A stretch of 64,000 nucleotides of DNA from a virus (Duplodnaviria > Caudoviricetes). The DNA lies in IMG/VR virus record IMGVR_UViG_3300020049_006942, one strand, 5' to 3'. Both the position numbers and the translations under genes were made by a program. Below are positions 4,857 to 52,260 of this stretch, piece by piece. How positions within the stretch are numbered: position 1 is the stretch's first letter; each line of letters starts with the position of its first letter. A model generated the notes under the pieces. It made no database searches. It was not told the origin of the DNA and was given only the letters and a program-made list of their open reading frames with translations.

Positions 4857-6035
4857 ATGTCACACGAAATCGAAAAACCAATCGACAAAGTTCTCAGCAC
4901 TCGCGGTACCGAATGGCACGGCCTCGCCGAGCATCTGGAAACCATCGACAAGGAAACCATCCGCCAGAAAGGTCTTTTCTTCCCTATCGGCAAAAGTCAG
5001 GTTGTGAACTGGCACGGGGAATCTGCAATGCAGGAAAGCATTGCGAGCCTCGAAACCCTGCTGACAACGCCAGGAACGACGAAAGCAGGCATTCTGAAAG
5101 CCTTTCAGGAATACAGCCGCAATCTGGCATTCATCGGCACGCATCAAAGCGTTACGGCTGATCTGACTGATTGCCGCCCTGATCTGGTCGAAGCTGGCGA
5201 GGAAACCCGCATCCCTCTCGGCATTCCGAAAAATTCGTATGAAATCATCACGAATGAGCAAGCCTTCGACGTGGTGGGCAGGGTTTTCCCTAACTGCAAC
5301 GTCTCGACTGCTGGCACCTTGCGCGGCGGGAAGGTGTTTTTCCTTAGTCTCGACATGGATGGAAAGACCGAGTACACCGGCCCCCGTGGTGATAAGTACC
5401 TGCAATTCTGGGATGTCGTCACCTCTCACGATGGTACGATTGCCTTCCGCATCTACGATTCCGGTACGCGTATCGTGTGCATGAACACGCTCCGCGCCTC
5501 ACTCAGCAACAAAGGCGACCTTAATATGGTCGTATATCACTCTAAGAATGCACTTGAAGCTCTTAATCGGGTTTCTGTGAATCTCTCTGAGCTTGTGGCA
5601 GGGCGGGAATCTTACTTCGATTCCCTAGGCTACCTCGACACCGTTTCCTGCTCCATCGAAGATGCCCGGTACCTTGCCAGTGCATTCCTCAACAATCGCG
5701 GCAGCAAAGAGGGTGAAGAGCCTAAAGAACTTTCTACGCAGATTTTCAATCGTGCGGAAGAAATCGGAAACCTCTTCAAAACCGGACAGGGGAACCGTGG
5801 GGCAAATTACTATGATCTGCTCAACGGCATGACTGAGTGCTTCACCTGGGGAATGGGAACGGGTGCGAAACTTTCCAAGGCTGAAAAGCTGATGAAATCC
5901 CGCGACGGCACCGCTGCCGAAGTTAAGGAAGAATTCTACAACTTCCTAATTTCCGGTCCCGAAATCCTCGAACGTGCGCGGCTCCAAGGTGAGAAACTTT
6001 TCCGTGAAAAGGAACTTGCCAAGGCTTCCAAGTAA
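4857..6035 (+). CDS. DUF932 (DUF945)-family phage protein
   Basis: WHGL N-terminus, TAGTLRGGK, SHDG...RIVCMNTL motifs; visibly GC-richer than the late region. Confidence 0.8.
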   Translation: MSHEIEKPIDKVLSTRGTEWHGLAEHLETIDKETIRQKGLFFPIGKSQVVNWHGESAMQESIASLETLLTTPGTTKAGILKAFQEYSRNLAFIGTHQSVTADLTDCRPDLVEAGEETRIPLGIPKNSYEIITNEQAFDVVGRVFPNCNVSTAGTLRGGKVFFLSLDMDGKTEYTGPRGDKYLQFWDVVTSHDGTIAFRIYDSGTRIVCMNTLRASLSNKGDLNMVVYHSKNALEALNRVSVNLSELVAGRESYFDSLGYLDTVSCSIEDARYLASAFLNNRGSKEGEEPKELSTQIFNRAEEIGNLFKTGQGNRGANYYDLLNGMTECFTWGMGTGAKLSKAEKLMKSRDGTAAEVKEEFYNFLISGPEILERARLQGEKLFREKELAKASK

Positions 6036-6631: not shown

Positions 6632-7342
6632 TTAGTCTCCTTGACGTTGTTGTTGTTTCTGTCTTATATCGACAGGTGCTTTTGGTCTTGCACCCATTTT
6701 CAATAATTGTTGCTTCTTTACTTCGGGACTGGCAAGATGGATTTTATCGAGGTCGAAGTCGTTTTCGGGAACGGGTTCTTCGGATTTATATAAATCGTTT
6801 AGATTTACTGTACTTCTATCCTGACCAAGTTCTATATAAATCTTATCGGGATCGGCCTTGAGCTTTTGTGCCAGTTGTTTTATAAGAGATACATCTTTAG
6901 GTTTGAGGCGTCCTATTTGATTCCATATAGATAATACAGTTAGTTTCTTATCGGGCCATATACGACCTTGAATAGCATCGGGATGTTTTTTCAGTGTGCT
7001 TCCTCTACTATAGTAACCTGTTTCATCCCCGAAATTATCCAAATATTCTTGGCGGTCTTCTTCGGATATTTCTCCGATAGAATAGATACTGGAACTGTTA
7101 GAATTGTCTCTTAAAAGGTATTGATAATGGATTGCAGTCATCAAGGTTCCGTGGTAGAATTCTGTAGTGTAAAATATTGCATCCTTGAATGTAATGAATG
7201 TGACTGCATTTTTATCATCATATCCGGTTTTTATTTCAAAGTCTTCACCCTCTGGAGTCTTTATTTGTATATATGCACTGTCAGGGTCTTCCTTGATAAT
7301 AGAAAGCTTGTTCAATTTATTATAGAGTTCATTAAATTTCAT
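6632..7342 (-). CDS. Putative internal head (ejected) protein with MKFNELY tag
   Basis: N-term MKFNELYNKLNKLSIIKE^; shares RIW..K..S.W and C-terminal GD* with 8723-9397. Confidence 0.7.
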   Translation of the reverse strand: MKFNELYNKLNKLSIIKEDPDSAYIQIKTPEGEDFEIKTGYDDKNAVTFITFKDAIFYTTEFYHGTLMTAIHYQYLLRDNSNSSSIYSIGEISEEDRQEYLDNFGDETGYYSRGSTLKKHPDAIQGRIWPDKKLTVLSIWNQIGRLKPKDVSLIKQLAQKLKADPDKIYIELGQDRSTVNLNDLYKSEEPVPENDFDLDKIHLASPEVKKQQLLKMGARPKAPVDIRQKQQQRQGD

Positions 7343-7364
7343 AATTAGGTTAATCTTAAAGTTT

Positions 7365-8714
7365 CTACGATATTATTCTATATAAACGTTCAATAGATTC
7401 GGAATACTTATCTGCTATATGTTTAATATAATTTTTTACATCGGATAGGTTTATTAGGTTTGTGTTGGTTAACACATTCATCAATATATCCATGAGAGGC
7501 AGATCATGTTTGGCACAAAAATCTTTTATAGTTTCATCTTTAAAATTTGAGTAGTAATAAACCGAGAGAATCTGATTTAATTTATAGGAATTGACCTCGG
7601 ACACTTTATATATTGATGTATCATATAATGCCGTATAGATCAAGTAATATGCATATGCACGGGTATTTAATTCATTGCCGTGTTCTATTAATATTTTTTC
7701 CATGCCTATATCTCTATTCTGTGTATGGAGAGACATTATCGTTGTCAGATATTTGTAGGTTAGATTAGAAGATTTACTAATTGATTTTTTTAATTCTCTT
7801 TTACCGAGCGAACCAATCGATGCTATTTTTTTTGTTTTATATAAAATGTTAAATGCTTTTTGAGGCTCATAGAATTTTTCTAGAATTTCCTTATCAGTTC
7901 CTTTTGCAATATTTTTCACTAAGAATATTTCAAAATCTCCAATTCCTTCTTCGAAATTAAATTTGGCATGTTTGAAGGAGTTTTGTATCAAAGGATATAC
8001 TGCACTGGCGGCATCCGCCTCAATCTCCGAATCGTATTCATCTTTGATTTGAGCAGTAGGAAAGTGAATCAATATGATTGGTTTTGGATTAGGATGGATT
8101 TTATGTGAGTTATAATTAGGGTAATTGTTTGGAGATGGATTGCCATTTATATCTTTATAAATTATTTCTTCATCTCCTTGTTCATAGATTACGAAATATG
8201 GTCCTTTTTTGAGATAATCACTGGCATAAGGTTCTTCTCTAACACACCATTCGGTTCCTTCTGCAATCCGCATTATTGCCTTAGCAGTGGTAACTTTGTA
8301 CAATTTATATCGACCAAGTTCCTTTATTTTATGGCGGTCTTGCCAGTCTTCGTCGGTCATAGGTTCCACATTAGTTATATCGGAATTAACTTCTATCTGT
8401 TGCACCAATTCTTTATAGGACTTGTATGAGTTTAAATCTTTATTCCCTTGCCATTTTTTTGTTTTTGATTGGTTTAAAAATTTTTCCAGTGTGGATTTTA
8501 TTTTATTTATATCTTCGGGGATGCGGAATTGGTTTGAATTTTTAATGATCCAATCTATATATTTTTTATTCGGAGTTGGGTCTGCATCGGCCAACTGTGT
8601 GATGGATTGCTCTGTTTGATTTTCGTATTTTTTAAGCAGGAAAGGGATGCGAGATGATATATCTTCTAGAATAAAAAACGAATCAAGTATAGAATATAGT
8701 TCATTAAATTTCAT
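7365..8714 (-). CDS. Putative internal head protein with MKFNELY tag; PcfJ-like GTxWC domain
   Basis: MKFNELYSILDSFFILE^; DPT..KKYIDWI, DLNSYKS, GTEWCVR..Y...GP motifs common in large phages. Confidence 0.65.
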   Translation of the reverse strand: MKFNELYSILDSFFILEDISSRIPFLLKKYENQTEQSITQLADADPTPNKKYIDWIIKNSNQFRIPEDINKIKSTLEKFLNQSKTKKWQGNKDLNSYKSYKELVQQIEVNSDITNVEPMTDEDWQDRHKIKELGRYKLYKVTTAKAIMRIAEGTEWCVREEPYASDYLKKGPYFVIYEQGDEEIIYKDINGNPSPNNYPNYNSHKIHPNPKPIILIHFPTAQIKDEYDSEIEADAASAVYPLIQNSFKHAKFNFEEGIGDFEIFLVKNIAKGTDKEILEKFYEPQKAFNILYKTKKIASIGSLGKRELKKSISKSSNLTYKYLTTIMSLHTQNRDIGMEKILIEHGNELNTRAYAYYLIYTALYDTSIYKVSEVNSYKLNQILSVYYYSNFKDETIKDFCAKHDLPLMDILMNVLTNTNLINLSDVKNYIKHIADKYSESIERLYRIIS

Positions 8715-8722
8715 AATTAGGT

Positions 8723-9397
8723 TTAATCACCGTCTCTAGCCACTCTCTTATTAAGAGTAGGTTTCTCTCCCATTTTTATTTTTGCAAGGAGAAGAGCATC
8801 TTCTTTTCGTTTTGCCTCTTGTTCGTCTTGATTGTTGTTTATATTTTCTTGTGTGTTTTTGGTGGGAAGTTTTTTATTATTATGTAGACCTTTCCAATCA
8901 TAACAACTATAGTCACTATGTTCTCTGTTATATGTTGCCCCGTCGAATTCAAATATATATTCTTCGGGTTTTTGGCGAAGGCGTGTAAATATTTCCTCGA
9001 TAATAGGAATCATCTTGGGATGGAATTCTTTCCATACAGAGAATATCTTGTTTGTTGTCCATATACGTGCGTCATATATACGTAATGCATTCGTGCGAAT
9101 ATCTCTTACTTCATACACAGGAATATTAGAAATCAGTTGTTTCGACATTTCCTCATGGTCGTCATCGGAAAGTATTCTTCGTAATCCGGCATGTCCAGGA
9201 AACTGTGTCTCGTCTTTTCTGGCAACATACTTAAATATACCACCAGTACATTCATATATCAGTATAGAATATTGAGTATCTCTACAATAATGAAAGGATA
9301 TGCGTTCATCGCGAGAACTTCTCGATATTATCGTATCAGGATTTTCCTTGATAATATCTAACTTGTTTAGTTTATTATATAGTTCATTAAATTTCAT
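8723..9397 (-). CDS. Putative internal head protein, paralogue of 6632-7342
   Basis: MKFNELYNKLNKLDIIKE^NPD; ARIWTTNKIFSVW; ends DGD*. Confidence 0.7.
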   Translation of the reverse strand: MKFNELYNKLNKLDIIKENPDTIISRSSRDERISFHYCRDTQYSILIYECTGGIFKYVARKDETQFPGHAGLRRILSDDDHEEMSKQLISNIPVYEVRDIRTNALRIYDARIWTTNKIFSVWKEFHPKMIPIIEEIFTRLRQKPEEYIFEFDGATYNREHSDYSCYDWKGLHNNKKLPTKNTQENINNNQDEQEAKRKEDALLLAKIKMGEKPTLNKRVARDGD

Positions 9398-9403
9398 AGT
9401 ATT

Positions 9404-10255
9404 TTACATTACAAATATGTGTCCGATATTGGATGTGAATATTGTATCAATATCATTGTTGAGCATATTCTCATATAGTTCAAATGTATATTCCAATTCG
9501 TCCTTTTGATCCTGAGATAGATTTCTTCTTAAAGGATAACCGTCTACACGGCCCCATGCAGTTTTTATAGGAAGAATATTCGGAAGTTTGGTATTCAATG
9601 TAATCTTTCCGTTTATAATATATTGTGCAATTAACTCATTAATGAATTCATCATCATTTCTTATATTTTTGTCTCTTGCAGATTTAAATGTTCCGAGTGC
9701 ATGGCCGAGTTCTCTTTTTATCTTTTGATTTGTTCTAGAGTAAGGATCGCTGATGCTTAGTTTTTGACCATATGCAATACCAAGTATTTCGTCGAATAGC
9801 TTATTCACTGTTTTTTTTATCTCCCTCCAGAAATAATCTGAACCATTCCTTGTAACTGTATCACGGGAAAATGCATGGCCGAATCTGTGTGCCATAATCC
9901 AAGGGGTGAGAGGTACCTTTTCATCTCCCATATTGTTTGTAAATATTAGGGTGATGTTATCTTCATTGTACGGAATATCAAGTTTCATCTTATCGCGAAC
10001 AAAATAGGAATCAACACGACCAAGTTCATAGAATTTGGATATCTCTGGTCCTTTGGCAATATAGATGTCAATAGGATGTTCGAGCTTTGACCATTTATTT
10101 TTTATGCGTTCCAAGGAATTCTTATTTTTGAGAATACCCACAGATGCACGATCATATTTATGGAGTTTAGAAGATTCCCAATCGCCCTTGAGTTCGATAT
10201 TCTCGATCCCATCATCTTCTTTTATGAGAAATTTATAAAGCTCTTGGAATGTCAT
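9404..10255 (-). CDS. Putative internal head protein, degenerate zincin-like (HRxxH) domain
   Basis: MTFQELYKFLIKE^; PWIMAHRFGHA...NELIAQY. Confidence 0.65.
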   Translation of the reverse strand: MTFQELYKFLIKEDDGIENIELKGDWESSKLHKYDRASVGILKNKNSLERIKNKWSKLEHPIDIYIAKGPEISKFYELGRVDSYFVRDKMKLDIPYNEDNITLIFTNNMGDEKVPLTPWIMAHRFGHAFSRDTVTRNGSDYFWREIKKTVNKLFDEILGIAYGQKLSISDPYSRTNQKIKRELGHALGTFKSARDKNIRNDDEFINELIAQYIINGKITLNTKLPNILPIKTAWGRVDGYPLRRNLSQDQKDELEYTFELYENMLNNDIDTIFTSNIGHIFVM

Positions 10256-10269
10256 ATATTTTACTTATG

Positions 10270-10992
10270 TCAACTAAGTTGAATATATGTATAATCTCGT
10301 TCCAGTGCCCATTCGCAAATAGCTTTAAGATTATCGAGTACCTGTTTTATACGTTCTTTGGAAAGACCTCCCTGATAGTGATTACCATCCTGTGTTTCGG
10401 GGCGAACGGCTTTATCAAGTTGATAATCATTGTCTTCGATTTGTTCAATCTTCATTAATAATTCATTTGCCTGAATGGATGGATATTCCGTCATCACATC
10501 ATCAGAATAGTTGAGAATATCACACATCAATGTTCTTGCATTTAGATTAGAGAGGTTCATTTCAGGAGGATTATCCGTAACTGGATTTACCTTTACACGA
10601 AGCCTCCATACATCTCCTTTACGACTACCCGAAGTTTCCACATATGGTTTATTAAGAACTTCGGCATTGTTTTCCCCGACATAGTAAGAAATCATTTGAA
10701 TCAATTTAGTTGTGAGTTCTTCGGGCACCTTATCTGTATATATGCTCAGGACTCCTTCGGGGCCGAAATAGTCACTATCACCATCAACCACGATCTTTTC
10801 ACCCCGAAGTTCGTCAGGATATTTTTCAAGAGGTATGTTCAAGTTTTTCAACATGAACTGGTGAAATTGATTATTAAGAATCCATGCCAAGTCTCCAAGG
10901 GTTGCAACAGTTGTTGTACTATCTGCAACGGAAAATGTCACACTTTCTTGAACAACAATATGGGATATAAATTTATCAAACAAGGGAGTCAT
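10270..10992 (-). CDS. Putative internal head protein
   Basis: MTPLFDKFISHIVVQE^S tag; PEMNLSNLNARTL motif. Confidence 0.65.
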   Translation of the reverse strand: MTPLFDKFISHIVVQESVTFSVADSTTTVATLGDLAWILNNQFHQFMLKNLNIPLEKYPDELRGEKIVVDGDSDYFGPEGVLSIYTDKVPEELTTKLIQMISYYVGENNAEVLNKPYVETSGSRKGDVWRLRVKVNPVTDNPPEMNLSNLNARTLMCDILNYSDDVMTEYPSIQANELLMKIEQIEDNDYQLDKAVRPETQDGNHYQGGLSKERIKQVLDNLKAICEWALERDYTYIQLS

Positions 10993-10997
10993 ATGTA

Positions 10998-11318
10998 TTA
11001 ATATTTAGCAAAACCATCAAGAGCACCGGGATATTCACGGACAAGTCGTTTCACATCTTGGACATTTTTAAATAATAAAAGACGTGCAGGATCATTGACA
11101 GGATATTCATAGAAACAAATCACCTTTGAATTTTTCAATGCTTTTAAAACCTTTGGTGCATCCGTTCTCGACAAGGTTACTTGAGTTACAAGATTGAATT
11201 TTTCCAATTTAACCTTGGTTCCTGAGATTGCATTATTAACTTTATTTTGAAAGTCAGGTTCGGCAATAAAGTATTCCTGTAATATATTATTTATAAATGT
11301 ATCAAATTCTGTTGTCAT
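10998..11318 (-). CDS. Putative internal head protein
   Basis: MTTEFDTFINNILQE^ tag; own late promoter TGTAAATA 6 nt upstream. Confidence 0.65.
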   Translation of the reverse strand: MTTEFDTFINNILQEYFIAEPDFQNKVNNAISGTKVKLEKFNLVTQVTLSRTDAPKVLKALKNSKVICFYEYPVNDPARLLLFKNVQDVKRLVREYPGALDGFAKY

Positions 11319-11335
11319 ATTTAATATTTACACTT

Positions 11336-14300
11336 TTAAATGTTGAGATTGTTGGGAGGTATAATACCGAACAGTGCGGTCCAATCGGTGGCAGTTATAA
11401 AATAGTCTTTTTTTCTATTATCACCCGACCAGTGACCCGATAAAATATAATAACCCTCAACCGTTTTAGTATCGGATGCGATTGCATAAATGTTATAGTA
11501 GATGTTTGTATTTGGTAGCCCCTTCTCTCCTATCGGTCCTTTTCCGATATAAATCAGGTTATCACCCTGTTGATTTTTGTAGTGTCCTTTTTTATATCCT
11601 TCTCTTGCCAAGTTACTAAATTGTAACAACACTTCGCCCGACACCTTGATATTAGATTTAGAATCGTCTTCTTTAGTTGTTGTAGGTGGTTCCTCGTCAA
11701 ATATTTCCTTCCATTTCTTTGCAGTTATAAAATAATGGTATGATGTGGATGTTCCAAGCATATTGTTTGAAAATTCAGAAGCCCCCGAAGAACCACCATA
11801 TATATCTTTCGGTTTCACAGACTTCATAGGAAATCCACTATCTCGAAGGCTACCCTTTCCGATATAAATTAATTGTTCCCCGTCTTTTGTTTTACTGTCC
11901 TTGAGATACGGGAGTGCATTTTCAATTTTTGCCAACTTTTTAAATTTGCGTTTAATGCCAGGAGATATGTCCGAAGTTGTAGAGTCTATTAAATTTTTGA
12001 TAGGACCGAACAATTCGGTCCATGCATAATCTTTCATCCATATAGTAGTCCCAGGACTTAAATCGACCTCAAGTTTTTTCATGCTTGATACTCCCGACCA
12101 ATTATCGCCCGTCATCCAAGTCCCGAACATATAATCTTCTACTAATTCTTGTGTAAATATGCCGTCTTTTATTGCACCGAGAACATCAACAGCGGTTCCA
12201 ACATATAATACTATATATTCTTTTACGTTAGGAATCGAAGCTAACTGTTTATGCCCACTTTTTGCAAGATTTTGATATTTTTTTATTACTTCTGGAGTAA
12301 TAACATTTTTCTTCTCTGCAACAACGGGTTTATGCTCACCGAAATATTTTTTCCAGATGTCTATCCACATGATAACGGGTTGATCTAGATCAGTCACATT
12401 ATCAAACGATCTGAGTTTAATCCATAAATCACCGCCTTTTTTCATTGTATACATCATGGGAGATGATACTAGTGCAGGTTTGACAAAAATATCTTTTTTA
12501 AATTTACCAGACTCGTACAATTGTTTGACATCTCTTATCGTTCCTACATACGGCCAATTCGTTCCTACTCCCCCGTAATGACTCTCACCATATTCTAATA
12601 AGGCATGGAAATCTGATATTTCCTTTTCGGTAAATTCCTTTGATTTGGTCTTACTTTCTCTAGTCTTTTTCTTATCACCGAATAGCTCTTGCCAATATTT
12701 ATCTTTCATCCAAACACGATATGCGAACGATACATCATCCTCATTGTTGAGGGTTTCCCATGATCCACTATTATATATTTTACCGAACGCCTCTTTATCG
12801 AATAGGCTCTTGGGAAATACCCCGGCATGTATATCCTCTGCAACGTTCTGTCCAAATCCTAAGTGATGAGCATTAAGAAGAGATGGGATAGCAAACTTAT
12901 GAGTTGCCACGGTATAACCAACATTATCATTGTCTCTATACTTCTTTATAATTTCAGGAGTTATTTTATCATTTTTCGGTAACTTATCATCTTCGATGTC
13001 TTCGGATGGTTTAAATTTTCCAAATAAACTTTCCCACAATGTTTTTTTCATGACATATTGATAACCTTCTTTTGCTCCTAATATGCCATCACCACCCCAA
13101 TCACTTATACAATAACCACTATTAGAATGTTCGATGCGTCCAATATTTTTCGATATCTTTTTTATAAGAGAGAGATCATCTCCTCCAATAATATTAGATA
13201 ATGTGATTGTAGCACCATTTTGTATATCTTCTGGGTCTGCCAGATGTTTAGGTATAGAGTTTCCCAATGAAACCCAAAAATCTGGAGAGCCAGCAGTCGC
13301 TTCCTCAAACGACGATTCATCTTTAAATTCTTTCGCAACCTTTATAAAATATTTTTTAACGGCTTCAAACTTATTAGCTTTCTCTTTATAGCCTGTTATT
13401 TCTTCAAATGGTCCAAAGATATCTTCCCAATGCGATTTTTTTAAATAATATTTATTACTAGGCGCATTTCCGTACAAATTAGGACAGCCCGTTTTTTCGA
13501 CCATACTAAGTTCATCATCTAGATATCCACTACAATTGTTAATACTTGATACTCCTATCTCTTTTACCAACCCTTCACCCGAAACACCATTACCAATAAA
13601 TATAAATCCTTTTTTATATATGTCAGAATCGGTTTGTTTTGCCGCCGCTATAAACTTGGAAACATATGTGGAATTAGGAGTATATTTTGTTTTATCAGAA
13701 GAATCAAATTCTTTAGGAAGTTTTCCGAATTTTTTTATCCAAATATCTTTAGGGATTGCATAATCGTGTGAGGGGGATGACCCCTCATTGCCACCGCTCC
13801 ACGATCCTGAATCAAGACGCATAAACAGATCAAAAGAATCTATGTCTAACAAGTGCATTAAATGTGGTGGTGTATTTACTCCTGGTCCCACAGCTATCAA
13901 TTCGTTCCCGCTGCTATTGTATATTTTACCAAATTTTTTAAACCCTTCCTTTGCCATCTTATTCCAATGTGGACGATTCATCTCAATGTTGGAAGATGTA
14001 TCTTGATATTGTACTTTTCCAGGCATCATGTGCTGTGGAAATTGGAAAGATTTCCCTAAATCGTGGAATATTTCTTTTGGTTCTTTTTTCGGTTTCACCT
14101 CTTCTTTTGGAGGAGCCTTCTCAACTTTATAATATTGTTCCCATGTTCTATCTCCAGAGGCTTTCAGCATTTCAATATACATCCGATCTATACTTCTAAG
14201 TGCAGGCACTTCTTTTGTTACATTTCCAGAGGCATCTTTTATTTTTATTGTTGCAACTTCTTTTATTTTTTTTATTCTATCCCAATTATCTTTAACATCT

Positions 14301-15160
14301 GCCTTAAAGTTTAATGCATTTAATACCCAACGATAACCCGCATTTGATTTATAATATGACTGGAGTTTATTAAAAACCGTATCGGTATTATGTTGCTGGT
14401 GATACATATTATCTATGTAGATAATCTGGTCTACTTCACGCTTTGCATAATATAGTTTGATGTATGCGTCACATATACTTGCCCATGGCTTTCCACCATA
14501 AGAAGCGCCCCATTGCAGGGATAAAAACGATTTTCGACCAATTTCTGCGACCTCTACTTCTGATATATTAAGTTTAGCTATCGTCTGTTTGAGTGCTTTA
14601 TAAGATATTCTGTAGTCGGTATTACGTGATGCGCCCCCCTCCTTCATTTTAATATTATATTTTTTATTAAATTTACGGCGACGTTTATTAATTAAATCTT
14701 TGATAGTACTATCCCCATCCCGTTTTATCTGGGATACTTTCTTCAATTTTTCATAATTATATTTTAAATTAGTATAAAACTCGGCAATCTGCGGGCCTAG
14801 CGTTGCCGTTATATTTAATGGTGAATTATTATCAAAAACATGTCGTAGCTCACATGATATAGAAAACAAACTTGCTTCCAGTAACTCTGGTTGAAGATAG
14901 CCTATTAATTGTTTTTTAATTTCTTCAAACGAAAACTCTGTCGAGTGGTCCAATCCCATCGAATGTGTAGTTGTCTGCGATACTTGTCCGAAATGATCCT
15001 TCTTATCTCCTGGCTGAAACTTTCCTTCTTTCTTTAATGCATTAAGATGCACCAACATATAGAAATCATAAAGAATTAATTCTTTATCTTGGGGAATTGA
15101 ATATGAATAGTTTTTCTCCAGAATAACTTTAGAGAAAATATCAAATGTTGATGACAGCAT
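11336..15160 (-). CDS. Large putative internal head protein: N-terminal YGGxPW/HN domain + 8 diverged ~105-aa repeats
   Basis: MLSSTFDIFSKVILE^; CELRH, YGGKPWASI, ID...HNTDTVFNK; repeats each end in W-x3-F-[GD]; CATAAATA 5 nt upstream. Confidence 0.75.
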   Translation of the reverse strand: MLSSTFDIFSKVILEKNYSYSIPQDKELILYDFYMLVHLNALKKEGKFQPGDKKDHFGQVSQTTTHSMGLDHSTEFSFEEIKKQLIGYLQPELLEASLFSISCELRHVFDNNSPLNITATLGPQIAEFYTNLKYNYEKLKKVSQIKRDGDSTIKDLINKRRRKFNKKYNIKMKEGGASRNTDYRISYKALKQTIAKLNISEVEVAEIGRKSFLSLQWGASYGGKPWASICDAYIKLYYAKREVDQIIYIDNMYHQQHNTDTVFNKLQSYYKSNAGYRWVLNALNFKADVKDNWDRIKKIKEVATIKIKDASGNVTKEVPALRSIDRMYIEMLKASGDRTWEQYYKVEKAPPKEEVKPKKEPKEIFHDLGKSFQFPQHMMPGKVQYQDTSSNIEMNRPHWNKMAKEGFKKFGKIYNSSGNELIAVGPGVNTPPHLMHLLDIDSFDLFMRLDSGSWSGGNEGSSPSHDYAIPKDIWIKKFGKLPKEFDSSDKTKYTPNSTYVSKFIAAAKQTDSDIYKKGFIFIGNGVSGEGLVKEIGVSSINNCSGYLDDELSMVEKTGCPNLYGNAPSNKYYLKKSHWEDIFGPFEEITGYKEKANKFEAVKKYFIKVAKEFKDESSFEEATAGSPDFWVSLGNSIPKHLADPEDIQNGATITLSNIIGGDDLSLIKKISKNIGRIEHSNSGYCISDWGGDGILGAKEGYQYVMKKTLWESLFGKFKPSEDIEDDKLPKNDKITPEIIKKYRDNDNVGYTVATHKFAIPSLLNAHHLGFGQNVAEDIHAGVFPKSLFDKEAFGKIYNSGSWETLNNEDDVSFAYRVWMKDKYWQELFGDKKKTRESKTKSKEFTEKEISDFHALLEYGESHYGGVGTNWPYVGTIRDVKQLYESGKFKKDIFVKPALVSSPMMYTMKKGGDLWIKLRSFDNVTDLDQPVIMWIDIWKKYFGEHKPVVAEKKNVITPEVIKKYQNLAKSGHKQLASIPNVKEYIVLYVGTAVDVLGAIKDGIFTQELVEDYMFGTWMTGDNWSGVSSMKKLEVDLSPGTTIWMKDYAWTELFGPIKNLIDSTTSDISPGIKRKFKKLAKIENALPYLKDSKTKDGEQLIYIGKGSLRDSGFPMKSVKPKDIYGGSSGASEFSNNMLGTSTSYHYFITAKKWKEIFDEEPPTTTKEDDSKSNIKVSGEVLLQFSNLAREGYKKGHYKNQQGDNLIYIGKGPIGEKGLPNTNIYYNIYAIASDTKTVEGYYILSGHWSGDNRKKDYFITATDWTALFGIIPPNNLNI

Positions 15161-17038
15161 TTAACTATTTATGAGATTTTTTGTTAGTATATAGTTAAAC
15201 ATTTCCTCGATTACACCGTTATCACTATACCAATCATCATTGGATGATAGTGATGGAGATAGTGCATTTCGAGAATCTTTGTAATTGATGACGCTTTCTA
15301 CCGGATTGTTTTGAGGAGATTTGTCCCATGTATAAAAGCAATAGTTGTCTATTCCTCTGGTTAAAAACGGTTCTGCTGATAATGTCTGCAACATGAATAC
15401 ATTGGTGATCTGAGGAGATACTGTGTGAAAATTGAATATCGTTCCTCCGTCTTCTTTGTACAGAACGGTTACTCCAGCGGTTATATAGTCGGTTAGTGTT
15501 ATTTTATTTCCTAAATTACTTCTTTTGTCGAATTTACATATAGTACATATATTAGAATTGTTACAACCGATACATCCGACAAAATTAGTATTGCATACGC
15601 ATCGTGATCCGATAAGTTTTTGTAAAGGTATTGTTGAAAAATTGAATATGCGTCTAAGTTCTTCTGGCAATTCTAATCCGAAATCGTCCATAGGATCATC
15701 CAACATAATTGATTTATCTATTAATGCATCAACTGTACATATATCGATATCAGAATGATCATCAGAAAAATTATGTATTTTATCATACAGCTTTCCAAAA
15801 GAATCACCCGACCCCGCAATCGTATCTAAATATGTGTCGAAATTGCTATATTGTTCTATATCAAATGGCAATGATTGTTTCAACACATCATAGATAGTCG
15901 TATCTTCCCCTTTTCTGAAAAATTCATGACGATTCTCTAGCGCGACAATATCAAAAGGTGAGGAGGTACCAGATAGTGTATAATCAATACCATTATAATT
16001 AAATACACCAGTCGCTGATAGAATTATGCTTCTCGGTGTGTTACGAGTTCGTGTATATTCGATTTTATCATATTCAGGATTACAGGAATCTATATTATTT
16101 GTTATCGTTTGCACTGCTAATGATGATGCGGGGAGATTGAAATTAGTTAATATATATCCACCAGTTTTCTTACAATTTGAATCTAATAAATTCATTGCAC
16201 AAGTCGGATAGACAAATGATGAGGTATCAACGCCGAAACAATTTGATAAAAATTTGATATCTGTTAAATTACCGGAGACATAATGAAGTATGTTAGTGGA
16301 TGAATTTTGTGAACTACCTACACTTATAACATAAGGAATATCAATACCTGCCCACTGTATTCGATTTATATCGTTTATGCCATCTGCTGTTATGATTAGT
16401 TTATCAGGCGTACTGGCACATACAGAGTGTTGAACTGTAGAAAATACACGGGAATTTATGGGAACATTTTTATCGGTTTGTTTGACAGTGAACCATAGAT
16501 TTCTATGTCCTGGCATATCATCGGAATAGTTTACAGAGGATGTTGCTGAATATCCCAGAACAGATGTTCCAGAATAAACAGGCGATCCAGTTATTTCTAA
16601 TTCAGATATATTTTCATCATCAAACGTAAATGACCACTCAGGTTGAAGATGTGTCCAGAAACCTCTGACATCTGAATATGGCACCGAATCGCTTCCACTG
16701 GAATATAATACAACGGTATTCATTTCGTTCCTTGAGGAAAGATTTATTGTAAATGTGTGGATATTTGATACGATGGATGATGTTGCAGGACTCGTTACTA
16801 ATATCTTATCCGTAAAATATGCCCCATTATAAACACTTAATTGAAATGCGGAAGTTGTAGAACATCCTCCACCATATATATTATAAAGACCAATGCTGGA
16901 GTAAATATGCGATGCTGTATTGGTGTGTGAAAATGTCCCATCACCCCAATTTATCAAGGGAGCTTCTGCGGAAGGCGAAATCTGAAATGTAAAAGTTGTT
17001 ACATTTTTAATACCAGATAATTGAGAGACGGTGATCAT
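15161..17038 (-). CDS. Baseplate-associated structural protein with PKD-like N-terminus and Cys cluster
   Basis: INWGDGT...SHIYSSIGLY (PKD-like); CxC-x6-CxxC-x5-CxxC; next to gp25. Confidence 0.6.
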   Translation of the reverse strand: MITVSQLSGIKNVTTFTFQISPSAEAPLINWGDGTFSHTNTASHIYSSIGLYNIYGGGCSTTSAFQLSVYNGAYFTDKILVTSPATSSIVSNIHTFTINLSSRNEMNTVVLYSSGSDSVPYSDVRGFWTHLQPEWSFTFDDENISELEITGSPVYSGTSVLGYSATSSVNYSDDMPGHRNLWFTVKQTDKNVPINSRVFSTVQHSVCASTPDKLIITADGINDINRIQWAGIDIPYVISVGSSQNSSTNILHYVSGNLTDIKFLSNCFGVDTSSFVYPTCAMNLLDSNCKKTGGYILTNFNLPASSLAVQTITNNIDSCNPEYDKIEYTRTRNTPRSIILSATGVFNYNGIDYTLSGTSSPFDIVALENRHEFFRKGEDTTIYDVLKQSLPFDIEQYSNFDTYLDTIAGSGDSFGKLYDKIHNFSDDHSDIDICTVDALIDKSIMLDDPMDDFGLELPEELRRIFNFSTIPLQKLIGSRCVCNTNFVGCIGCNNSNICTICKFDKRSNLGNKITLTDYITAGVTVLYKEDGGTIFNFHTVSPQITNVFMLQTLSAEPFLTRGIDNYCFYTWDKSPQNNPVESVINYKDSRNALSPSLSSNDDWYSDNGVIEEMFNYILTKNLINS

Positions 17039-44522: not shown

Positions 44523-45203
44523 ATGATAATTGAAAGAAAACTTATTGTTGAACAGCCTAATTACGATCTTGAGTTTGCATTTGAACAAACCAATCGCGAT
44601 GAGTCTAAAAGACTGTACATCAAAGGCCAATATATAATGATGAACCGGGGAAATAAGAATCGTCGAATTTATGAAGAAGACGAGATGATTCCTGCGGTCA
44701 ATACTTATATAAAAGAATATGTGTCCCAGAACAGAGGTGGCGGAGAATTGAACCACAGTTCCAATCCAGATGTGGATTTATCTAAATTAGCGGATAAGAT
44801 AATATCTCTTGAACGAGATGCACATGATCCTGATTATTATATAGGAAAATCTATGATTTTATCTACACCGTCTGGTAAAATACTTGAAAGCTTGGTACAT
44901 GATGGTGTAAAGTTTGGTAAAAGTTCTAAATGTTTAGGACAGATTTCAGAAAGTTCTGATGGATTTAATAGAGTAAAATCTCCCCTTATATTATTGGTCG
45001 ATAATGTTTTTGACCCTAGCGTTAGTACAGCTTTTGTAAATGGCATACTTGAAAATAAATCGTACATCATTGCGGATGATGGACATATCGCAGAAGCATA
45101 TGCCTCGCTTGAGAAGAAATTGTCTAAGTATCCATCACATCACAGAGATGATATTAAGAAACACATCCTAGAAAGTTTACAACAATTCCTTAAAAATATA
45201 TAA
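44523..45203 (+). CDS. gp21: Prohead core protease, T4 gp21-like
   Basis: LYIKG....N.NRRIY, GELNH, STPSGKI, GKSSKCLG, D.V.DPS...AFVNGILE. Confidence 0.93.
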   Translation: MIIERKLIVEQPNYDLEFAFEQTNRDESKRLYIKGQYIMMNRGNKNRRIYEEDEMIPAVNTYIKEYVSQNRGGGELNHSSNPDVDLSKLADKIISLERDAHDPDYYIGKSMILSTPSGKILESLVHDGVKFGKSSKCLGQISESSDGFNRVKSPLILLVDNVFDPSVSTAFVNGILENKSYIIADDGHIAEAYASLEKKLSKYPSHHRDDIKKHILESLQQFLKNI

Positions 45204-49267: not shown

Positions 49268-50755
49268 ATGGCAAATAAGAAAATGTCTTTCGATTCATTT
49301 AGAGATAAAGCGAATGCAGTACACAACAACAAGTATAATTATGATAAAACTGAGTTCAAAACTCTTCGCGATTATATTATAATATCATGTCCAGAACATG
49401 GGGAATTTACTCAAAGGGCAAATGCTCATTTAGATAAACAGGGGTGTAGAAAGTGTCGAAATGTGGGGATTGGAAACAGACTCCGTTCCAACAAAGAAGA
49501 GTTTATAAAGCAAGTAAACATCTTACACGATAATAAATATGATTACAGCAAATTTCTCTATGTTACTGATAAAATATCTGGCATTATATACTGTCCTATT
49601 CATGATTTAGAATTCTCTCAGACACCAAGTAATCATAAAAAAACCAAAGAGGGATGTCCTAAATGTTCTAGAGAATTACATGCTAAATTAAAGAGAAATT
49701 CCTTAGAAAGGACTATAGAATTGTGCGAACATATACATGGGGAGGGAGCGTTTAATTACTCCAAAATACCAGAAAATGTTCATAGTCACGACAGAGTTAC
49801 TATTACATGTAATACATGTGGCGGAACATTTGAACAGTTGATGTATTCGCATTCCAATATAGGCAACGGCTGTCCTATTTGTAAAGTTTCTAAAGATGAG
49901 ATTCAATTAGGTCGATTTATAGAGGACGAATTAGGTATATCTATCAATAGAAGTGATCGAGCGATATTAGAAGGTAAAGAAATAGATATATTAATTCCTT
50001 CTCATAATATAGGTATTGAGATAAACGGAAATTACTGGCATTCTGATATAATCGCAAAACATGATAAACAGTATCATCTGGACAAGACTTTAGGAGCATA
50101 TACCAAAGGAGTACAACTGTTGCAGTTTTTTGGAGATGAGTTGTTCTATAAGGAAGCGATATGTAAATCTATTGTACGTAATAAGTTGGGTCTTGCTAGT
50201 AGATTGTATGCAAGGAAGTGTCTAATTAAAGAGGTATCTGTAGATGATAAGAATGTATTTCTGGATAATAATCATATACAAGGGAAAGATCATTCTAAAA
50301 TAAAGCTGGGATTATATTATAATGATGAATTGGTTTCTCTTATGACTTTCGGTTCTCCTAGATATAATAAAGAAGTTGAGTGGGAACTGATACGGTTTTG
50401 TTCTAAATTGAACACATGTATTGTGGGGGCGGCATCCAAACTATTTCAACACTTTATAAAAAATTATGATCCAAAATCTATAATATCATATGCAGACAGA
50501 AGAATAAGTGATGGTAACTTATATGACGTTTTAGGGTTTATACATACTCATGATGCCGCACCTAGATACTATTACATGCATCGCAAAAACTATTTAAAAA
50601 GATTTCACCGTTCCAATTTCACAAAGGACCGAATTAAAAAACTGTATCCAGAAGTAGATATAGTTAATAATGACGAATGGACTTTGATGCAATCCTTAAA
50701 CTATGATCGAATATGGGACTGTGGAAATAAAGTATATGTATGGAGAAACAATTAA
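49268..50755 (+). CDS. Hef-like homing endonuclease (zinc-ribbon repeats + Vsr-like nuclease + C-terminal domain)
   Basis: Three C..HG.F...H....GCP.C repeats; EIDI....IGIE.NG.YWH; YARKC..FL..NH.QG; IWDCG. Confidence 0.8.
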   Translation: MANKKMSFDSFRDKANAVHNNKYNYDKTEFKTLRDYIIISCPEHGEFTQRANAHLDKQGCRKCRNVGIGNRLRSNKEEFIKQVNILHDNKYDYSKFLYVTDKISGIIYCPIHDLEFSQTPSNHKKTKEGCPKCSRELHAKLKRNSLERTIELCEHIHGEGAFNYSKIPENVHSHDRVTITCNTCGGTFEQLMYSHSNIGNGCPICKVSKDEIQLGRFIEDELGISINRSDRAILEGKEIDILIPSHNIGIEINGNYWHSDIIAKHDKQYHLDKTLGAYTKGVQLLQFFGDELFYKEAICKSIVRNKLGLASRLYARKCLIKEVSVDDKNVFLDNNHIQGKDHSKIKLGLYYNDELVSLMTFGSPRYNKEVEWELIRFCSKLNTCIVGAASKLFQHFIKNYDPKSIISYADRRISDGNLYDVLGFIHTHDAAPRYYYMHRKNYLKRFHRSNFTKDRIKKLYPEVDIVNNDEWTLMQSLNYDRIWDCGNKVYVWRNN

Positions 50756-51546: not shown

Positions 51547-52260
51547 ATGATTAGTAGATTTGATAACTATTATAAATGGATAGTAGAAAGAACTGGCAAC
51601 GAGAAACAGCGAATTGTATCAGAAGGACTTATAACATCATATCCTGTAGATGTTCTACTCGCTGATCTTAAAAAAAGATACGATAATATCGAATATGATA
51701 ATAAGCGGGGAACATTTATAATTGATCAAATACCTTTAACACACCGAGCTAGTTTGGTTAAAAAACTTGAACTTTATGGATATTTCATCTCGGACGAAAT
51801 GATAGATGATGTTGATTCTAGTTTATTCGCTGTCAGTGTTGAGCCTAAATTCCCTACAGAAATCCCCCACAATATGTTACATGACAAAATACAGTATTGT
51901 TACCATATTACCACTGATAAATATATTGATAAAATTAAAAAAATAGGGTTAGTTCCGAAGGAATCAGTCAGAGAGTTTTATAAACATAGTGGGAGTAGAA
52001 TCTATTTTCTTATAAGCGACAACATAAAGAAAGATATTCCATTATTAAAAAATATGCTAATGGCGGATAATAATCGAAAATTTATACTGAAAAATGCTAC
52101 TAAGTACTATTTGTTACGTGTAAATTTTCAATCATTGAACAAAGACATGGTATTTTATCGTGATCCTCGTTTAACCATTGATAAAGAGTTCAAAGGTTTG
52201 GGTATATTCACATTAGGAAATGTGCCACCAAACAAAATAGAATTTTTGGGACAAATATAA
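51547..52260 (+). CDS. ADP-ribosyltransferase-like (Tpt1/KptA/DarT-like HxT) protein with head-targeting-like N-terminus
   Basis: YHITT...I.KIGL.PK, G.RIYF, YLLRV, DP, VPP..I motifs; MISRFDNYYKWIVE^. Confidence 0.65.
   Translation: MISRFDNYYKWIVERTGNEKQRIVSEGLITSYPVDVLLADLKKRYDNIEYDNKRGTFIIDQIPLTHRASLVKKLELYGYFISDEMIDDVDSSLFAVSVEPKFPTEIPHNMLHDKIQYCYHITTDKYIDKIKKIGLVPKESVREFYKHSGSRIYFLISDNIKKDIPLLKNMLMADNNRKFILKNATKYYLLRVNFQSLNKDMVFYRDPRLTIDKEFKGLGIFTLGNVPPNKIEFLGQI

What the first reader, a model, noticed from the sequence alone, without database searches (positions are those of the whole stretch)
11336..13980. Eight highly diverged tandem copies of an unrecognised ~105-aa domain in a 1274-aa tagged protein
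Seen: repeats start with a helix (ITPE.IKKY..LAK.G-like), contain [LI].[YF][IV]G.G, and end WIKKFG, WEDIFG, WESLFG, WQELFG, WKKYFG, WTELFG, WKEIFD, WTALFG, joined by K/E/P-rich linkers. They follow a conserved-looking N-terminal domain (CELRH, YGGKPW, HNTDTVFNK). Inference: a beads-on-a-string array of diversified binding modules on an injected enzyme, such as multi-specificity sensors, decoys or nucleotide-signal sponges. I do not recognise the domain.
Basis: partly seen in the sequence, partly recalled or inferred. Interest (0 to 1): 0.75.

Follow-up and report, generated by a model that had tools for sequence, protein, structure and literature searches.

The report
Tagged phage protein with eight-domain array
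A 1274-residue late protein of an uncultured T4-like jumbo phage carries a T4-style head-packaging tag, a conserved new helical domain and eight fast-diverging copies of a small domain that matches no known family or fold, so it is probably a cargo protein delivered into the host, with its biochemical job still unknown.

Summary
ORF 11336-15160 (-) encodes 1274 aa with eight tandem ~100-130-aa units, each ending W-x3-[FL]-[GD]. A profile built without any window sequence finds seven of them significantly; R5 is marginal. Homologues carry 4-8 copies. An AlphaFold model of one unit is confident (pLDDT 82), alpha/beta, with a floppy linker. It has no convincing match in Pfam, PDB or BFVD. Only 24 of 1.84 billion cluster representatives carry the domain, nearly all (23) in 2-8 copies.

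The conserved N-terminal domain (res 16-345) is all-helical and also unmatched. It defines a wider family of more than 60 unnamed phage proteins with different C-termini.

The "tag" is real. Seven consecutive genes, including this one, start with a T4 capsid-targeting-like helix ending [LIV]-x-E. The window encodes a gp21-type head protease. In three relatives the neighbouring tagged genes are fused in frame to this protein, and the tag is kept at every junction.

Best reading (about 0.5): a late, head-packaged, protease-trimmed, ejected protein whose array is a fast-evolving binding part. "Sensor, decoy or sponge" is untested. It is a new variant of a known kind (T4 internal proteins and Alt). 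Other notes of this scan on the same window had already flagged the tags.

The parts
11336..15160 (-). Whole gene, 1274 aa (P0001)
   Evidence: ORF list and translation. Homologues P0002-P0012.
15166..15173 (-). T4-type late-promoter-like box CATAAATA, 5 nt upstream of the ATG and inside the 3' end of the upstream gene
   Evidence: Upstream sequences. TAAATA lies within 25 nt upstream of 23 of 45 ORFs, against about 0.02 expected per such window.
15116..15160 (-). N-terminal tag, residues 1-15, ending I-L-E. Putative capsid-targeting propeptide and protease site.
   Evidence: The motif is shared by 7 consecutive genes and conserved in homologues. It is kept internally in the fusions P0007, P0008 and P0012. 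It resembles the T4 ipII/ipIII start. It is modelled as a separate helix 3-14 with low pLDDT.
14126..15115 (-). Conserved all-helical N-domain, residues 16-345, pI 9.4
   Evidence: Model pLDDT 83.9, pTM 0.79. No fold match. The family alignment has invariant E104 and at least 90% conserved R106, H107, D250, Q256, H257, N258, T261, N264 and K265. Partial phrog_20946 hit.
14024..14125 (-). K/E/P-rich linker, residues 346-379
   Evidence: Translation. It lies outside both profiles.
13724..14023 (-). Repeat R1, residues 380-479
   Evidence: External profile i-E 9.8e-18.
13412..13717 (-). Repeat R2, residues 482-583
   Evidence: External profile i-E 2.9e-13.
13019..13411 (-). Repeat R3, residues 584-714, with a ~20-aa insertion
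   Evidence: External profile i-E 8.6e-6. Alignment.
12677..13009 (-). Repeat R4, residues 718-828
   Evidence: External profile i-E 3.3e-5.
12338..12676 (-). Repeat R5, residues 829-941, the most diverged copy
   Evidence: Marginal: external profile i-E 0.038 over the full length, and leave-one-out score 2.5 bits, within the shuffle range. It keeps the conserved Gly in the VGT strand turn (second Gly displaced by an insertion) and the terminal W-x3-FG.
12005..12337 (-). Repeat R6, residues 942-1052. This is the unit that was modelled.
   Evidence: External profile i-E 5.5e-10. Model m3905ed6a7688, pLDDT 81.7.
11696..12004 (-). Repeat R7, residues 1053-1155
   Evidence: External profile i-E 2.2e-14.
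11366..11686 (-). Repeat R8, residues 1159-1265
   Evidence: External profile i-E 1.8e-14.
6632..11318 (-). Six further tagged genes directly downstream (106, 240, 283, 224, 449 and 236 aa). They form one cassette array with this gene.
   Evidence: N-termini. The 236-aa and 224-aa proteins are fused in frame to the N-domain/repeat protein in P0007 and P0008.
44523..45203 (+). gp21-type head maturation protease, the presumed enzyme that removes the tag
   Evidence: phrog_207, E 4.3e-36.

Best explanation
This is a late-expressed virion cargo protein of a distant T4-like jumbo myovirus.

Proposed mechanism, step by step:
1. The first 15 residues form an amphipathic helix ending I-L-E. They act like the T4 capsid-targeting sequence and dock the protein onto the scaffolding core of the prohead (inferred).
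2. The phage's gp21-type protease cuts after Glu15 (inferred from T4's L/I-x-E rule).
3. The mature protein stays in the head with the DNA and leaves with it at infection (inferred).
4. The conserved, basic, all-helical N-domain is the constant working part. Its invariant polar residues suggest a catalytic or ligand site (inferred).
5. The eight small alpha/beta modules on flexible linkers are a fast-evolving, copy-number-variable binding part. A chain of ~12-kDa beads could also pass the tail channel more easily than one large globule (inferred).

Shown directly: the domain architecture, the repeats, the tag motif and its distribution, the protease gene, the late-promoter boxes, the fusions, and the lack of any known family or fold.
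For: Repeats and fold.

Phage type: the head protease, gp23-like capsid protein, portal and gp25/gp6-like baseplate genes are T4-type. Late-promoter boxes sit just before many start codons, including this gene's.

The tag:
- 10 of 45 ORF N-termini match the tag pattern, against 0.8% of internal positions. Seven of the ten are the consecutive genes 6632-15160.
- Homologous loci show the same tags on the repeat protein and on its downstream neighbours.
- The T4 ipII/ipIII start, read from the T4 record, is of the same type.
- gp21 cuts after L/I-x-E. The 10-aa CTS is sufficient for packaging, and even beta-galactosidase fusions are packaged and delivered (PMC9026906). T-even internal proteins are diverse and share only the CTS (PMC3012670).

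Fusions: P0007, P0008 and P0012 are in-frame fusions of neighbouring cassette proteins with the N-domain and repeats. A tag is retained at each junction, which argues that the tag works at the protein level, for example as a processing site.

Other tagged proteins: tagged neighbours in related loci include GNAT acetyltransferases scoring above the Pfam cut-off, so the tagged set includes enzymes.

Genomic position: distant N-domain proteins lie among non-structural genes, so the family is not a fixed baseplate part.

Evolution: the repeats diverge much faster than the N-domain and vary from 4 to 8 copies in N-domain homologues (2-8 across all carriers).
Against: - There is no direct evidence of packaging, cleavage or ejection. 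The phage is uncultured.
- The gene sits right after a gp25-like gene and a conserved 625-aa gene in a baseplate module. That synteny is conserved in the closest relatives, which would also fit a tail protein.
- The tag pattern was defined after looking at the data, so its P-value is only indicative.
- In distant family members the residue three places before the Glu is often F or Y rather than L or I.
- [LI]-x-E sites inside the protein are neither depleted nor enriched.
- No partner, ligand or catalytic motif is identified for either domain.
Confidence: 0.5

Rival explanations
1. It is a tail or baseplate structural protein, for example a hub-associated or peripheral decoration. The repeat array projects outward and binds the cell surface.
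For: The gene lies immediately after the gp25-like gene and a conserved 625-aa gene, opposite gp6-like baseplate genes. The order gp25-like, then ~624 aa, then the repeat protein is conserved in L001 and L005. Variable C-termini on a conserved N-domain, such as a beta-solenoid in P0035 and SH3 in P0046, recall receptor-binding proteins.
Against: - The protein shares its N-terminal tag with a run of small unrelated proteins and with GNAT enzymes.
- T4 itself has alt beside its hub genes, so adjacency is weak evidence.
- Distant N-domain proteins lie among nucleotide and RNA-metabolism genes.
- There is no fibre-like beta structure or trimerisation element in either model.
- In T4, tails assemble separately from the head protease (PMC9026906).
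Confidence: 0.15
2. It is a structural component of the prohead core or of an inner-capsid body. It is targeted by the tag, but its job is assembly, head-size control or DNA organisation, not action in the host.
For: It has the same tag and protease logic as the T4 core proteins (PMC9026906). It is large, modular and moderately basic overall (pI 8.8). The gene is late.
Against: - The repeats evolve fast and vary from 4 to 8 copies between close relatives whose N-domains are 56-67% identical. That is unusual for an assembly scaffold.
- Internal [LI]-x-E sites are not enriched, unlike scaffold proteins that are degraded.
- Individual repeats range from pI 5.1 to 9.6, so they are not uniformly DNA-binding-like.
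Confidence: 0.15
3. It is a cytoplasmic, non-virion late protein. The shared N-terminal motif serves something else, such as translation initiation, recombination between cassettes, or localisation.
For: The tags coincide with conserved DNA at cassette starts. This was noted by the scan on this window (e1-5754932, e1-5754938) and not re-tested at the DNA level here. There is no direct packaging evidence.
Against: The motif is kept as protein sequence at internal junctions of fusion proteins, where no promoter or start codon is needed. It ends in the protease-type [LIV]-x-E and resembles the experimentally defined T4 CTS (PMC9026906).
Confidence: 0.1
4. It is the tail tape-measure protein, with repeat number setting tail length.
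For: The length is right for this role and the gene sits near hub genes, as gene 29 does in T4. The copy number varies.
Against: The units are modelled as globular alpha/beta domains on floppy linkers, not an extended helix. There is no similarity to T4 gp29. A head-type tag is present. Distant family members are as short as 294-350 aa and lie away from tail genes.
Confidence: 0.03

Closest known systems
T4 internal proteins IPI/IPII/IPIII and Alt (capsid-targeting-sequence cargo of T-even phages)
   Same: - A short N-terminal amphipathic tag of the same type, ending in Glu after an aliphatic residue at -3.
- A gp21-type protease encoded by the phage.
- Late expression.
- A locus of several unrelated proteins that share only the tag.
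- Alt likewise lies beside baseplate-hub genes (PMC9026906; PMC3012670).
   Different: - There is no sequence or profile similarity of either domain to IPI-III, Alt or gp2.
- It is far larger than the IPs.
- It has a new helical domain plus an eight-unit array.
- Relatives exist as in-frame multi-cassette fusions with internal tags. I know of no description of this for T-even IPs (from my own knowledge, not searched exhaustively).
Ejection proteins of giant phages (SPN3US/phiKZ) and large packaged anti-restriction proteins such as P1 DarB
   Same: They are large proteins packaged in the head, trimmed by a gp21-like protease after Glu, and delivered to the host (PMC9026906, PMC7411985 and PMC9024508 abstracts).
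   Different: No homology was detected. Those systems use other targeting logic and other domains. Membership was not tested beyond the lack of hits in the phage database.
PHROG phrog_20946 (unknown function)
   Same: Residues 209-277 match profile positions 157-223 of 336 at E 2.8e-7. This is the most conserved core of the N-domain.
   Different: Only a fifth of the profile is covered. The PHROG has no function and no repeats.
Rossmann-like strand-GxG-helix nucleotide-binding elements
   Same: The invariant Gly and the near-invariant second Gly sit at the end of the first strand, before a helix. The weak top structural rows include FAD monooxygenase N-termini and tetrapyrrole methylases.
   Different: All of those matches are at noise level (Foldseek E at least 0.44; Z at most 3.2). 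There is no sequence-family hit. This is a lead only.

Membership tests
T4-type CTS-tagged head cargo (internal proteins/Alt) | N-terminal ~10-20-residue targeting peptide resembling the T4 CTS | tested here: met
   Residues 1-15 belong to a motif shared by 10 of 45 ORF starts, against 0.8% background. They are of the same type as the T4 ipII/ipIII start read from NC_000866. This is similarity of pattern, not demonstrated homology.
T4-type CTS-tagged head cargo (internal proteins/Alt) | Tag ends in the prohead-protease site L/I-x-E | tested here: met
   I-L-E at residues 13-15. Neighbours end I-K-E, I-L-E, L-Q-E and V-Q-E. The rule is taken from PMC9026906.
T4-type CTS-tagged head cargo (internal proteins/Alt) | Phage encodes a gp21-type prohead protease and T4-type head genes | tested here: met
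   phrog_207 at E 4e-36, a gp23-like capsid protein and a portal.
T4-type CTS-tagged head cargo (internal proteins/Alt) | Protein is physically present in the mature head, N-terminally processed, and ejected | not testable with these tools
   Needs virion proteomics and infection assays. The phage is known only from metagenomes.
Any Pfam/PDB structural repeat (Ig-like, PKD, SH3, LysM, cell-wall binding and similar) | Significant sequence or fold match of the repeat unit | tested here: inconclusive
   - No Pfam hit on the protein, and none that recurs across the 39 repeats.
- PDB sequence profile: best E 0.55.
- Foldseek against PDB: best E 0.44.
- VIA against 48,161 chains: best Z 3.2.
- BFVD: best E 0.097.
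Absence of a match does not prove a new fold.
Tail tape-measure proteins | Long, mostly helical extended protein encoded with the tail/hub genes | tested here: not met
   The repeat unit is modelled as a compact alpha/beta domain with flexible linkers. There is no similarity to T4 gp29.
phrog_20946 | Match over most of the profile | tested here: inconclusive
   Only profile positions 157-223 of 336 match, at E 2.8e-7.

The most novel reading that the evidence does not exclude
The protein is an injected multi-specific counter-defence hub. A conserved enzymatic head (the N-domain) is joined to up to eight independently evolving modules of a previously unseen fold. Each module would bind a different host immune protein or signalling nucleotide. 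Related phages would make the same cargo as a polyprotein that the head protease cuts at internal targeting tags.
Probability: 0.15. Interest if true: 0.85.

Novelty: new variant of a known kind. Interest (0 to 1): 0.52.

Why it matters
Head-packaged proteins are the first phage molecules to meet the host, and in T-even phages they include anti-restriction factors and a host-RNA-polymerase modifier.

This locus shows that a very distant, uncultured T4-like jumbo lineage uses the same tag-and-protease logic for a much larger and more modular cargo. It defines two domain families with no known relatives or folds. One of them is confined to about two dozen sequence clusters out of 1.8 billion and occurs in tandem arrays in all but one of them.

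The in-frame multi-cassette fusions that keep their tags suggest polyprotein-style processing of head cargo. They also give a natural "Rosetta stone" linking this protein to its neighbours.

If the modules prove to bind host defence components, the array would be a compact record of the host's immune repertoire.

Tried and rejected
- Self-BLASTP of the protein gave only the diagonal, so the repeats need profiles.
- Megablast against 50,697 phage records gave no hit. tblastn found only the N-domain, in one 595-kb uncultured phage.
- Pfam gave nothing on the protein, its homologues or the 39 single repeats beyond scattered one-off weak hits. ATE_N in P0004 is below the cut-off.
- PDB sequence-profile searches with both domains gave nothing.
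- Fold searches of both models in PDB (Foldseek and VIA wide), and of the repeat model in BFVD, gave only noise-level rows.
- The ESM Atlas fold library was not available. The Atlas feature search gave no usable hit.
- Profiles of both domains against T4 gp25-gp54, Alt, IPI-III and gp2 gave nothing significant.
- [LI]-x-E sites inside the protein and four homologues are neither enriched nor depleted.
- No whole genome is held for the window. The exact protein is not on record in the contig index. One distant locus had no DNA.
- The weak T7-kinase family marks on tagged genes of L008 were not reproduced with the Pfam copy at hand, so I do not rely on them.
- A Pfam scan of the tagged 237-aa protein at 51547-52260 gave no family, so the scan's "ADP-ribosyltransferase-like" note is unconfirmed.
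- Complex prediction was not used because no specific partner could be proposed.

Full report
**What is there.** The minus-strand ORF 11336..15160 encodes 1274 aa. The eight W-x3-[FL]-[GD] ends lie at residues 474, 578, 709, 823, 936, 1047, 1150 and 1260. CELRH, YGGKPW and HNTDTVFNK lie in the N-terminal 265 residues.

**Are the repeats real?** BLASTP self-comparison shows nothing off the diagonal, so the copies are very diverged. Pairwise identity is 16-30%. Profiles settle the matter.
- A profile built from the window's eight units alone finds 4-7 units in each of seven metagenomic homologues.
- A leave-one-out test puts 7 of 8 units above all 200 shuffles.
- A profile built from 42 homologue repeats, with no window sequence, finds R1-R4 and R6-R8 at i-E 3e-5 to 1e-17, and R5 at 0.038 over its full length.

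I therefore count seven robust units and one marginal unit (R5, 829-941). Across all 39 aligned units one Gly and the Trp are invariant, and a second Gly and the Phe are at least 90% conserved.

**Fold of the unit.** AlphaFold2 with the 39-repeat alignment gives a confident model for R6 (pLDDT 81.7, pTM 0.73; all five models 77-82).
- It starts with a low-confidence ~14-residue linker.
- The order of elements is helix 15-32, strand 43-48, helices 49-57 and 63-69, strands 70-73, 80-82 and 98-102, and the terminal helix 103-110 that carries W..LFG.
- The G-x-G sits between the first strand and the following helix.

No search recognised it. The best results were Foldseek/PDB E 0.44, VIA against 48,161 chains Z 3.2, BFVD E 0.097, PDB sequence profile E 0.55, and no recurrent Pfam family over the 39 units. 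This does not prove a new fold, but nothing known was found.

**How common is the domain?** An exhaustive HMMER search of 1.84 billion cluster representatives with the repeat profile found only 24 proteins at E <= 1e-3, and 23 of them carry 2-8 copies. Copy numbers are:
- 8 in the window and in P0009
- 7 in P0002, P0003, P0005 and P0006
- 6 in P0004
- 5 in P0007
- 4 in P0008 and P0010

Orthologous units can be traced between close relatives: P0002 and P0005 share 56-73% identity unit by unit. P0004 has four recently duplicated units (44-55% identical to each other). The window's units are only 20-38% identical to their best match anywhere, while the N-domains of the same proteins are 56-67% identical. 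So the array evolves much faster than the N-domain, and it gains and loses units.

**The N-terminal domain.** Residues 16-345 are conserved (53% identity even to the 1685-aa P0007). The model is confident and all-helical (pLDDT 83.9, pTM 0.79). It has no fold match (Foldseek best E 0.6; VIA best Z 5.2, below the usual noise level for helical proteins) and no PDB sequence match.

The domain defines a wider family. There are 28 shorter proteins and 42 by profile. All are unnamed or "hypothetical", from metagenomes, on contigs up to 595 kb. Their C-terminal parts differ, for example a beta-solenoid in P0035 and SH3_15 in P0046. The 595-kb uncultured phage LR756511 has two adjacent paralogues without the repeats.

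Across 32 family members, E104 is invariant. R106, H107, W217, G222, G223, W226, D250, Y253, Q256, H257, N258, T261, N264 and K265 are at least 90% conserved. This suggests an active or ligand site but identifies none. The only library hit is a partial one to phrog_20946, of unknown function.

**Context and the tag.** The window is the late/structural region of a distant T4-like myovirus. The evidence is:
- gp25-like and gp6-like baseplate proteins
- portal and adaptor
- sheath stabiliser, gp21-type head protease and gp23-like capsid protein, the last about 30% identical to cyanophage gp23
- TAAATA boxes within 25 nt of 23 of 45 start codons, including CATAAATA before this gene

The protein was seen on a contig of 204 kb.

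Seven consecutive minus-strand genes, 6632..15160, begin with a short amphipathic motif that ends [LIV]-x-E. Two or three genes elsewhere in the window have it too. This protein starts MLSSTFDIFSKVILE and its neighbours start MKFNELY...IIKE and similar. A pattern written after seeing them matches 10 of 45 N-termini, against 0.8% of internal positions (the P-value is indicative only).

The T4 record gives MKTYQEFIAE for ipII and ipIII. In T4 those ten residues are sufficient for packaging into the prohead core. gp21 cuts after L/I-x-E, and fusions as large as beta-galactosidase are packaged and delivered (PMC9026906). T-even internal proteins are described as diverse defence-countering proteins that share only this tag (PMC3012670).

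The same tags head the repeat protein and its downstream neighbours in five related loci. Two of those neighbours are GNAT acetyltransferases scoring above the Pfam cut-off.

**Fusion forms.** P0007, P0008 and P0012 are longer relatives.
- Their N-terminal extensions are one to three copies of the window's 236-aa tagged protein (6632-7342).
- The C-terminal extensions of P0007 and P0008 match the 224-aa tagged protein (8723-9397).
- At every junction the preceding module ends ...RYAMGE and is followed by SFKDFF...[VI]-x-E and then the next module.

In other words, the tag is kept in frame without its Met. P0007 occurs on contigs from independent sources. Retention over three diverged clusters argues that the tag acts at the protein level, most simply as a processing site. 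It also argues that these cassette proteins work or travel together.

**Position in the genome.** The order gp25-like, then ~624 aa, then the repeat protein is conserved in the nearest relatives. However, distant N-domain proteins lie among Thg1, nucleotidyltransferase, poly(A)-polymerase-like and HD genes. T4 itself has alt next to its hub genes. Adjacency to baseplate genes is therefore weak evidence for a tail role.

**Interpretation.** The best-supported reading is a late, tag-directed, protease-trimmed head cargo protein that is ejected with the DNA. It would have a constant N-domain and a rapidly evolving, flexible array of small binding modules. Packaging, cleavage, ejection, catalysis and binding are all inferred.

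The rivals are a baseplate or tail protein, a prohead-core or inner-body structural protein, a non-virion protein whose tag has another role, and a tape measure. Each is listed with odds in the rival section.

The proposals of sensors, decoys or nucleotide sponges have no evidence beyond a generic strand-GxG-helix element.

**Novelty.** The kind of system, CTS-tagged head cargo in T4-type phages, is known. The two domain families, the eight-unit array and the tag-retaining fusions are not described in any library or paper I could search. I rate it a new variant of a known kind, of moderate interest.

Noticed in passing
L003:10001-15058 (P0007); also P0008 and P0012: Relatives encode in-frame fusions of the form [236-aa-protein-like] x1-3, then N-domain, then repeats, then [224-aa-protein-like]. 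A tag-like SFKDFF...[VI]-x-E motif sits at every junction, which suggests polyprotein-style head cargo cut by the prohead protease.
   Followed up: partly
window 15161-17038 (-): A conserved 625-aa protein lies between the gp25-like gene and the repeat protein. It has no tag and no Pfam or PHROG family. It is syntenic in L001, L005 and L003 (624, 624 and 615 aa).
   Followed up: no
L005:10943-11986 and L001:16382-17404: Tagged proteins a few genes downstream of the repeat-protein homologues carry a GNAT acetyltransferase domain above the Pfam cut-off. They are candidate packaged enzymes.
   Followed up: partly
window, whole: TAAATA lies within 25 nt upstream of 23 of 45 start codons, often only 5-8 nt before the ATG. 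T4-type late transcripts here would have very short leaders.
   Followed up: partly
L009:9086-14031 (LR756511.1, 595-kb uncultured phage): Two adjacent paralogues (949 and 694 aa) carry the N-domain (E 1e-39 and 6e-44) but not the repeat domain.
   Followed up: partly
L010:8001-10262 (P0061) and the P0075 locus: Distant N-domain proteins sit next to Thg1-like, NTP-transferase, PolyA_pol-like and HD genes. This may hint at a link with RNA or nucleotide metabolism.
   Followed up: no
window 49268-50755 (+): A 495-aa HNH/homing-endonuclease-like gene (phrog_559, E 2e-118) lies directly after the major capsid gene.
   Followed up: no
window 4857-6035 (+); L001, L003, L005, L008: A DUF932 gene lies a few genes beyond the tagged cassette array in every related locus, so the outer border of the array is conserved while its content varies.
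   Followed up: no
P0015, P0020, P0021, P0026: A second architecture carries the repeat domain: a tag-like start (M-x-F...F-x-E-A-R-R), then about 800-1000 unrelated residues, then 2-4 C-terminal repeats. No N-domain is detected.
   Followed up: partly
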